Below, piece after piece: positions 53,021-53,697 of a DNA stretch of 64,000 nucleotides. The position numbers were made by a program, and so were the translations under genes. This DNA is from a virus: the IMG/VR virus record IMGVR_UViG_3300020416_000002; one strand, given 5' to 3'. Every line of letters begins with the position of its first letter. Position 1 is the stretch's first letter. The notes under the pieces are model-generated. The model saw only the letters and a program-made list of their open reading frames with translations. It did not search any database and was not told the origin of the DNA.

Positions 53021-53047
53021 AAAAAAAGAGGGGTGTAAACCCCCCTT
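53021..53047 (-). terminator. terminator of the riboswitch operon; loop carries -35 TTTACA, 17 nt to TATAAT
   Basis: GGGGGG-TTTACA-CCCCTC-T7. Confidence 0.75.
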
Positions 53048-53070: not shown

Positions 53071-53172
53071 TCAGATCTCTGTACCCCTCAATAGGAGTAC
53101 TTCGCCGTAAATAAACGCGAGAAACACGGCACATCCTATGGAGATTCCTCCGACAATGTATAGTGCTTCCAT
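53071..53172 (-). CDS. 33-aa single-TM peptide
   Basis: MEALYIVGGISIGCAVFLAFIYGEVLLLRGTEI, 4 nt after the DUF4278 stop. Confidence 0.6.
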   Translation of the reverse strand: MEALYIVGGISIGCAVFLAFIYGEVLLLRGTEI

Positions 53173-53176
53173 TGGT

Positions 53177-53320
53177 CTAACTCTTAGAGGCGAACTTGCG
53201 TTTCACCTTAATGCCACGATACATTAGTTCATGGTTACGGTTTTGTTCTCTCTCTGCGAGAACTTTTGCTTTATATCCTTCGGCGTCGTATTTGACACCG
53301 CGATAGGTGATTTGAGTCAT
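53177..53320 (-). CDS. DUF4278-family peptide, 47 aa (below cutoff)
   Basis: MTQITYRGVKYDAEGYKAKVLAEREQNRNHELMYRGIKVKRKFASKS; two YRG repeats; AGGAG SD. Confidence 0.85.
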   Translation of the reverse strand: MTQITYRGVKYDAEGYKAKVLAEREQNRNHELMYRGIKVKRKFASKS

Positions 53321-53354
53321 TTGCCTTCTCCTGAAGTAGTTGGGATTTTAGCCC

Positions 53355-53597
53355 CGTTCCTTCAGTCGTTTGCGTCCCATGTACATGTTAGACCCATTGT
53401 TTCAACTAGATGAACTTGATAGATTTCCATGATTTCAATCCTCTGTTGAGGTGTGAGGTCAGGATGTCTTTTTACGCGATCAAGCTTTTCAGCAATATCC
53501 GCACAAGTTACACCTGCGACCAATAGTCCTACTAAATGTATCATAGGATGAACGCTCCGTTCCGCGACCTACTTGCGTCCCTTTCGGGATGAACGAT
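53355..53597 (-). ncRNA. glutamine riboswitch (glnA/downstream-peptide family), nested double form
   Basis: AUCGUUCA-UCCC GAAA GGGA-CGCAAGUA...CGACUGAAGGAACG; starts 7 nt after TATAAT (53604-53609); precedes DUF4278. Confidence 0.85.
53362..53544 (-). CDS. 60-aa protein encoded inside the riboswitch
   Basis: GGAG SD, hydrophobic N-terminus, two Cys; the WDAND* end is encoded by aptamer sequence. Confidence 0.7.
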   Translation of the reverse strand: MIHLVGLLVAGVTCADIAEKLDRVKRHPDLTPQQRIEIMEIYQVHLVETMGLTCTWDAND

Positions 53598-53697
53598 ATG
53601 TGCATTATAACACATTACTATGTATATGACCACTTATTGTAACATTTTGTAAAGTGAATCCTACAGACCAAAAAAATTATGGAATTTTTTTTCCCGA

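What the first reader, a model, noticed from the sequence alone, without database searches (positions are those of the whole stretch)
53355..53597. Nested twin glutamine aptamer with a whole protein-coding gene inside one loop
Seen (minus strand): AUCGUUCA UCCC-GAAA-GGGA CGCAAGUAG GUCG C GGAACG GAG CGUUCA UCCUAUG-[ORF]-CAUGGGA CGCAAA CGAC UGAAG GAACG. The unit CGUUCA-P2-CGCAA...GGAACG occurs twice. The E-loop helix (AGUA-G-GUCG / CGAC-U-GAA) can only form between unit 1 and unit 2, about 200 nt apart, so the units are interlocked. The second P2 is formed by the start of the 60-aa ORF pairing with its own end (UCCUAUG-A-UACAU with AUGUA-CAUGGGA, 12 bp), burying the AUG. Its SD (GGAG) sits in the GAACG-GAG-CGUUC hairpin, and its last codons and stop (WDAND-UGA) are the aptamer 3' strand. 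Known: glnA and downstream-peptide motifs bind glutamine and occur in cyanophages; I do not recall a description of an ORF embedded in an aptamer. Inference: a reciprocal switch. Glutamine binding closes the loop, silences the inner gene and frees the DUF4278 SD, while ribosomes on the inner ORF melt the aptamer, possibly giving cooperative or bistable nitrogen sensing.
Basis: partly seen in the sequence, partly recalled or inferred. Interest (0 to 1): 0.9.

Follow-up and report, generated by a model that had tools for sequence, protein, structure and literature searches.

The report
Gene inside nested twin glutamine riboswitch
In this ocean cyanophage a glutamine-sensing RNA made of two sensor cores, one folded inside the other, closes one stem around a real 60-codon gene, so sensing nitrogen and translating that gene cannot happen on the same RNA at the same moment; hundreds of related phages share the layout and I found no published description of it.

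Summary
Confirmed. A T4-like cyanophage leader (minus strand, 53597-53354) holds two glutamine-aptamer cores. Across 348 distinct homologs, covariation picks the nested fold: P1 pairs 348/348 and 347/348 against 273 and 272 if tandem; the long-range binding-site pair agrees. The outer core is a type-I (glnA) aptamer; the inner is a circularly permuted core sharing P3, which covaries across the gene. The 60-aa ORF is a real gene (PHROG 504, two invariant Cys, family dN/dS 0.17-0.33). Either P2 loop, both or neither carries such a gene; free-standing copies also exist. Corrections: only 4-5 bp of the '12-bp' helix are conserved; the inner SD is absent in 43% of filled loci; a ribosome stopping on the inner gene should also free the DUF4278 SD, so 'reciprocal, bistable' is unsupported. 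Best model: glutamine turns DUF4278 on and probably damps the inner gene. No binding or reporter data exist. Partial precedents: tandem glnA RNAs, a 16-codon uORF in a B12 aptamer, intron-loop ORFs. The scan found this layout before on other DNA (69 notes, at least 54 genomes).

The parts
53639..53652 (-). One-mismatch NtcA-like box (TTA-N8-TAC) at the position where homologs carry GTA-N8-TAC; also reads as an HLR1/RpaB repeat (53636-53653)
   Evidence: GTA-N8-TAC in 246/329 homolog upstream regions vs 2% shuffled, mostly 31-32 nt before the -10 box; perfect HLR1 match only in this window
53604..53632 (-). Sigma-70-type promoter with extended -10; predicted start about 53597
   Evidence: -10 box 7-8 nt before CGUUCA in 231/348 homologs
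53590..53595 (-). Outer aptamer P1 5' strand (C1 of the outer glutamine site = 53595); pairs with 53355-53359
   Evidence: Watson-Crick at P1 position 5 in 348/348
53578..53589 (-). Outer P2 hairpin (P2a), empty here; holds a 60-75 aa gene in 67/348 homologs
53564..53577 (-). Outer junction CGCA, E-loop strand AGUA and P3 5' strand
   Evidence: P3 compensatory variants
53550..53563 (-). Inner (circularly permuted) P1 hairpin; SD GGAG of the inner gene at 53558-53555 includes the equivalents of glutamine-site G40 and G41
   Evidence: 347/348 and 337/348 pairs; numbering from PMC6698751
53362..53544 (-). 60-aa gene inside inner P2 (P2b): PHROG 504, hydrophobic N-terminus, helix-loop-helix between Cys14 and Cys54
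53536..53548 (-). P2b 5' arm with the AUG; pairs with 53375-53386
53354..53386 (-). P2b 3' arm, inner CGCA (G18, C19, A20 = Ala58 codon), P3 3' strand, E-loop GAA (holds the stop codon), outer P1 3' strand and long-range G
53328..53365 (-). Expression platform: CUGAAG (53365-60) pairs with CUUCAG (53336-31), which overlaps the DUF4278 SD AGGAG (53332-28), around a small hairpin 53355-42
   Evidence: pair probability 1.0 without ligand; 6/6 pairs in 159/251 homologs vs 11/1255 controls
53177..53320 (-). DUF4278 (IF17-like, YRG) 47-aa gene
   Evidence: Pfam PF14105 E 1.1e-5; YRG-type gene follows 329/348 elements
53071..53172 (-). 33-aa hydrophobic ORF in the same predicted transcript
   Evidence: 47 tblastn hits among fetched loci
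53025..53047 (-). Intrinsic terminator

Best explanation
A phage-specific two-site glutamine riboswitch at the 5' end of a small nitrogen-responsive operon. The outer core is a type-I (glnA) aptamer; its P3 is closed not by a loop but by a second, circularly permuted core, giving two three-way junctions head to head on one helix (shown by covariation). A real small-protein gene sits in the variable P2 loop of the inner core, and its coding sequence folds into a rod that brings its ends together (shown statistically). Without glutamine the 3' strand of the aptamer pairs over the DUF4278 SD; glutamine captures that strand and turns DUF4278 on (helix conserved; direction inferred from host type-I/II switches). 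Both binding sites need the last codons and stop of the inner gene, so a ribosome finishing that gene and the bound fold exclude each other (follows from the structure). Glutamine probably lowers inner-gene initiation by locking the two SD guanines in the inner pocket and stacking P2b over the AUG; the gene would be read mainly before its 3' end is transcribed or at low glutamine (inferred). A ribosome stopping on the inner gene should also uncover the DUF4278 SD, so DUF4278 is opened by either route rather than strictly reciprocally (inferred). Probabilities: structure 0.95, both sites bind Gln 0.75, DUF4278 ON 0.8, inner gene measurably repressed by Gln 0.55.
For: Nested pairing 348/348, 347/348, 345/348, 337/348 vs tandem 273, 272, 253, 250; 7/7 and 4/4 independent pairs follow the nested partner, 0 the tandem one. 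P3 variants GACU/AGUC, CAACG/CGUUG, GGAAGG/CCUUCC, all in gene-filled loci. P2b pair 4 is C-G 109, U-A 30, U-G 4, never C-A; about 6/7 independent pairs. An empty twin passes the RF01739 gathering score with the inner core as a 38-nt P3 insert. All binding-site nucleotides of PMC6698751 are present in both cores. 272/272 embedded proteins have exactly two Cys; dN/dS 0.17-0.33. Loop-gene interiors fold better than synonymous shuffles: median z -2.2 (P2b) and -3.4 (P2a) vs -0.6 for control genes. Anti-SD helix conserved. NtcA box upstream in 75%. Host type-I/II switches are ON switches for DUF4278 genes (PMC6212724).
Against: No binding, probing, reporter, ribosome-profiling or proteomic data. 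The nested secondary structure is 8.2 kcal/mol above the MFE in ViennaRNA, which ignores E-loop, triples, Mg and ligand. 96/222 filled loci lack a GGAG-type SD and the SD link fails on independent pairs. Empty forms are common (109/348) and the family also occurs free-standing, so nesting is not required by either partner. The inner core lacks an E-loop and its long-range G sits in a 3-nt loop; 11/348 break that pair. The tree for independent pairs rests on a 45-aa gene, and recombination can mimic repeated change.
Confidence: 0.6

Rival explanations
1. Tolerated cargo: the twin riboswitch controls only DUF4278; the gene is parked in a variable loop (like intron-loop ORFs) to share the promoter, is translated mostly co-transcriptionally, and is little affected by glutamine.
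For: All four occupancy states occur within the same scaffold types; free-standing family members exist, one directly downstream of DUF4278 behind an empty twin (L554); P2a genes are nearly leaderless with no SD in a binding pocket; 43% of P2b genes lack the SD.
Against: The P2b gene's last codons and stop are themselves aptamer strands in about 207/222 cases, so the two functions cannot be independent on one molecule; GGAG appears in 126/222 filled but 2/126 empty loci.
Confidence: 0.22
2. First reader's strict reciprocal, cooperative or bistable switch: glutamine silences the inner gene and turns on DUF4278; inner-gene ribosomes melt the aptamer and keep DUF4278 off.
For: Structure, SD position and mutual exclusion are as described.
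Against: The inner stop codon (53364-62) lies inside the anti-SD strand (53365-60), so terminating ribosomes should open, not close, the DUF4278 SD; both sites form only after the 3' end is made; no data on cooperativity.
Confidence: 0.1
3. One working site: the inner permuted core is a structural scaffold (or binds another ligand) and only the outer type-I core senses glutamine.
For: Inner core has no E-loop and a tight linker; 11/348 break its long-range pair.
Against: It keeps every ligand-contact base, and its long-range pair flips C-G to G-C together in L241 and L295.
Confidence: 0.07
4. Two ordinary glnA or type-II aptamers in tandem, each pairing within itself, with the ORF overlapping by chance.
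For: This is how Rfam scores the 5' unit and how the 2010 discovery alignment laid such sequences out.
Against: Tandem pairing fails in about 75 (P1) and 95 (long-range pair) of 348 homologs where nested pairing holds; P3 strands only pair across units.
Confidence: 0.01

Closest known systems
Glutamine-I riboswitch (glnA RNA, Rfam RF01739; Synechocystis gifB leader, PMC6212724)
   Same: Outer core: P1, P2, E-loop, P3 three-way junction, long-range pair, DUF4278 gene downstream, predicted anti-RBS release.
   Different: P3 is capped by a second permuted core instead of a loop; P2 loops can hold whole genes; found only on phage DNA here.
Glutamine-II riboswitch (Downstream-peptide, RF01704; structure PMC6698751)
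   Same: CGCA with GGAACG-G long-range pair, no E-loop in the inner core, YRG peptide downstream; a two-piece form binds glutamine.
   Different: No downstream pseudoknot helix; the third helix is shared with the other core; strand order is permuted.
Tandem glutamine riboswitches (PMC2864571; 157 doublets in PMC9481103)
   Same: Two cores in one leader; the 2010 glnA alignment already contains such phage-like sequences, including gene-filled ones.
   Different: Described as tandem; in the rows read each unit was aligned alone with the ORF left in the flank; 'nested' and 'interdigitated' do not occur in PMC9481103.
uMetE2 uORF inside the M. tuberculosis metE B12 aptamer (PMC11260477)
   Same: A translated ORF inside a riboswitch aptamer affects the downstream gene.
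   Different: About 16 codons, weakly translated, single locus; not a conserved folded protein family, not an optional cassette closed by an aptamer stem.
ORFs in peripheral loops of group I/II introns; type-I toxin mRNAs closed by 5'-3' pairing (own knowledge, not tested)
   Same: A whole gene looped out of a structured RNA; start region sequestered by long-range pairing.
   Different: Here the host RNA is a metabolite sensor, and the gene's end is part of the binding site.

Membership tests
Glutamine-I riboswitch (RF01739) | P1-P2-P3 three-way junction with E-loop AGUA/GAA | tested here: met
   Outer core; covariation
Glutamine-I riboswitch (RF01739) | Long-range G23-C60 type pair | tested here: met
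   C-G here; C-G 250, G-C 95 of 348
Glutamine-I riboswitch (RF01739) | Rfam gathering score 35 bits | tested here: not met
   Window: none at gathering, 31.4 bits on the 5' unit; an empty twin reaches 38.3, so the insert causes the miss
Glutamine-I riboswitch (RF01739) | Upstream of a DUF4278/gifB-like gene | tested here: met
Glutamine-I riboswitch (RF01739) | Selective glutamine binding and ON regulation | not testable with these tools
   needs probing, ITC, reporter
Glutamine-II riboswitch (RF01704) | Conserved core C1:G40, G18>G2:C39, C19:G41 | tested here: met
   bases present in both cores
Glutamine-II riboswitch (RF01704) | Pseudoknot with a helix closed downstream of GGAACG | tested here: not met
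   24.7 bits vs 33, helix broken in the alignment; covariation supports nested pairing
Ordinary tandem riboswitch | Each aptamer folds within its own contiguous sequence | tested here: not met
PHROG 504 (inner protein) | Profile match | tested here: met
   E 1.8e-15 over the full profile; 52/82 aligned members match
IF17 / GS inactivating factor (downstream peptide) | Inhibits glutamine synthetase | not testable with these tools
   only the DUF4278 match; short forms lack the IF17 C-terminus (PMC6212724)

The most novel reading that the evidence does not exclude
A natural head-to-head, two-site riboswitch with a circularly permuted inner aptamer whose P2 loops act as gene slots: glutamine binding sequesters the inner gene's SD in the ligand pocket and its stop codon in the E-loop, giving opposite outputs (inner gene down, IF17-like gene up) from one RNA, with occupancy of the slots varying among cyanophages.
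Probability: 0.45. Interest if true: 0.88.

Novelty: new variant of a known kind. Interest (0 to 1): 0.76.

Why it matters
It extends riboswitch architecture in two ways: a nested, permuted two-site aptamer, and a conserved protein gene of 50-75 codons carried inside an aptamer stem with its last codons forming the binding core. The element is widespread in T4-like cyanophages (445 records), is missed by Rfam when filled, and sits with an NtcA box and an IF17-like gene, so it is a likely route by which these phages read and steer host nitrogen status. Cultured phages such as Syn9 (gp196, gp197, gp198) make it directly testable. It also suggests that other riboswitches with gene-sized loops are hidden from current searches.

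Tried and rejected
Rfam at gathering threshold finds nothing in the window. Tandem and type-II topologies were rejected by covariation. A conserved 12-bp closing helix was rejected: beyond pair 5 pairing falls to about 20-50%, one column apart; the close relative L479 keeps 5 bp. Host origin: all seven complete GTDB matches looked like stray phage DNA; the five whose flanking genes were listed carry T4-like cyanophage genes. Function of the inner protein: Pfam only a sub-threshold HTH hit, no PDB fold match, viral fold hits only uncharacterised cyanophage proteins, Atlas only unnamed viral clusters under 0.9. 'Family occurs only in aptamers' was rejected. SD-occupancy link on independent pairs: not significant. 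HLR1/RpaB box: not conserved in homologs (8/329 within two mismatches). RNA contigs from two marine metatranscriptome studies cover parts of the element and ORF, but contigs cannot show strand, start or level and may hold DNA: weak. Ames and Breaker 2011 and the Syn9 transcriptome paper were not held; the glnA alignment file was cut, so its consensus line was not seen. The window's own assembly is not held.

Full report
Observation. The window is a T4-like cyanophage region (ssDNA-binding protein, PhoH, ThyX-like and tail-fibre-like genes on the minus strand; names from sequence features and own knowledge). A sigma-70-type promoter puts the start at about 53597, two bases before the first CGUUC, and the same spacing holds in 231 of 348 homologs. 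The 60-aa ORF runs 53544-53362, DUF4278 follows at 53320-53177, then a 33-aa hydrophobic ORF and a terminator. Rfam misses the element at its normal threshold and scores only the 5' unit weakly.

Homologs. An empty version matches 445 phage records, labelled Synechococcus, Prochlorococcus, cyanophage or marine virus, nearly always once per genome. In GTDB seven complete matches were found; the five whose flanks I listed carry phage genes. The scans were aimed at variants on one side of a pair, leaving the partner free, so the counts test pairing but are not population frequencies.

Topology. Two readings were possible: tandem units that pair within themselves, or a nested fold. Position 5 of P1 is Watson-Crick in 348/348 (outer) and 347/348 (inner) under nesting, but 273 and 272 under tandem pairing. 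The long-range pair that floors the ligand pocket holds in 345 and 337 under nesting, 253 and 250 under tandem. On a tree of the downstream peptide, 7/7 and 4/4 independent pairs follow the nested partner and none the tandem one (weak tree, recombination possible). P3 covaries across the gene: GUCG/CGAC becomes GACU/AGUC, CAACG/CGUUG or GGAAGG/CCUUCC in gene-filled loci. An empty twin passes the type-I gathering score with the inner core as a 38-nt P3 insert. So the outer core is a type-I aptamer and the inner one a circular permutation without E-loop, joined head to head by P3. Both keep the ligand-contact bases defined in the type-II crystal structure, which also showed that a two-piece aptamer binds glutamine (PMC6698751).

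The gene. P2 loops come in four states: inner filled 172, both 50, outer only 17, neither 109. Syn9 has both filled (gp196, gp197) before gp198. The 272 distinct embedded proteins all have exactly two cysteines 34-40 residues apart, and 271 join in one BLAST cluster across both loops. Median dN/dS is 0.17-0.33 in five subfamilies. The window protein matches PHROG 504 and is predicted as two helices between the cysteines (pLDDT 80); no function emerged. The family has 354 clusters at 50% identity, and five sampled members without the aptamer-derived tail are free-standing genes, one just downstream of DUF4278 behind an empty twin. The AUG lies at position 4-5 of P2. The closing helix is conserved over 4-5 bp; pair 4 is C-G, U-A or U-G and never C-A. 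The 12-bp form is local to this subfamily. Gene interiors, ends removed, fold better than synonymous shuffles (median z -2.2 and -3.4; control genes -0.6; DUF4278 -1.3), as expected if the loop must bring its ends together.

Mechanism. Shown by sequence: the inner gene's Ala58 codon supplies G18, C19 and A20 of the inner pocket, the next codons form P3, and its stop is the start of the E-loop GAA strand, whose variant AAA keeps a stop. The SD GGAG begins with the G40 and G41 equivalents. The strand CUGAAG can instead pair with CUUCAG over the DUF4278 SD: probability 1.0 without ligand, 6/6 pairs in 159/251 homologs against 11/1255 controls. Established: type-I and II switches turn DUF4278/gifB genes on, probably by freeing the RBS (PMC6212724). 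Inferred: glutamine turns DUF4278 on (0.8); both sites bind (0.75); the inner gene is damped (0.55). The nested fold lies 8 kcal/mol above the MFE in a model without tertiary terms, consistent with a ligand-dependent state but not proof of it. A ribosome stopping at 53364-62 covers the anti-SD strand, so inner-gene translation should open DUF4278 too; this argues against a strict reciprocal or bistable switch. GGAG-type linkers occur in 126/222 filled and 2/126 empty loci, but the link is not significant on independent pairs. An NtcA box precedes 75% of homologs (2% in shuffles), 31-32 nt before the -10 box; this window has a one-mismatch version. Its sign of action is unknown.

Known versus new. 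Glutamine riboswitches in cyanophages and tandem copies are reported (PMC9964418, PMC9004378, PMC2864571, PMC9481103). The 2010 alignment contains such sequences, laid out unit by unit with the ORF in the flank in the rows I read. A short translated ORF inside a B12 aptamer is known (PMC11260477). In nine literature searches I found no description of the nested permuted twin or of whole genes in its P2 loops; two key papers were not available. Earlier scan notes report the same layout in at least 54 other genomes; they agree but were not used as evidence. A neighbouring note proposed the same anti-SD helix, which I had tested independently, and an RpaB box, which my test did not support as conserved.

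Verdict. Real, conserved and apparently undescribed; a new variant of the glutamine riboswitch with strong structural evidence and an untested regulatory output. Interest 0.76.

Noticed in passing
upstream of homologous elements; window 53639-53652: NtcA box GTA-N8-TAC in 246/329 homologs, 31-32 nt before the -10 box rather than the usual 22; degenerate here and overlapping a perfect HLR1 repeat. Present in 101/107 empty, 46/49 doubly filled, but only 83/157 inner-only elements.
   Followed up: partly
window 53071-53172 (-): 33-aa hydrophobic, probably single-membrane-span ORF after DUF4278, conserved in 47 fetched loci, not listed by the ORF finder at 40 aa.
   Followed up: partly
L554:900-1377: Empty twin aptamer, DUF4278, then a free-standing PHROG-504-like gene overlapping its stop: a possible intermediate in capture or escape of the loop gene.
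   Followed up: partly
L122, L146, L151 (P2a): Genes of a subfamily usually found in the inner loop sit in the outer loop, so the gene has moved between slots.
   Followed up: partly
L244, L245 and kin (CGGA scaffold): P3 is a near self-complementary repeat with two symmetric A-C mismatches; the freshwater-type scaffold (L124) has one central mismatch.
   Followed up: no
L004, L006, L018 and others, just after the aptamer: An extra variable hairpin of about 25 nt is inserted between aptamer and DUF4278 SD in about 15% of elements without loss of the anti-SD partner.
   Followed up: no
L106: An element in which the inner hairpin and most of the gene are deleted in one step.
   Followed up: no
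L489, L495, L502, L522, L532, L542, L547: Cyanophage-type contigs binned into GTDB bacterial and archaeal MAGs/SAGs.
   Followed up: partly
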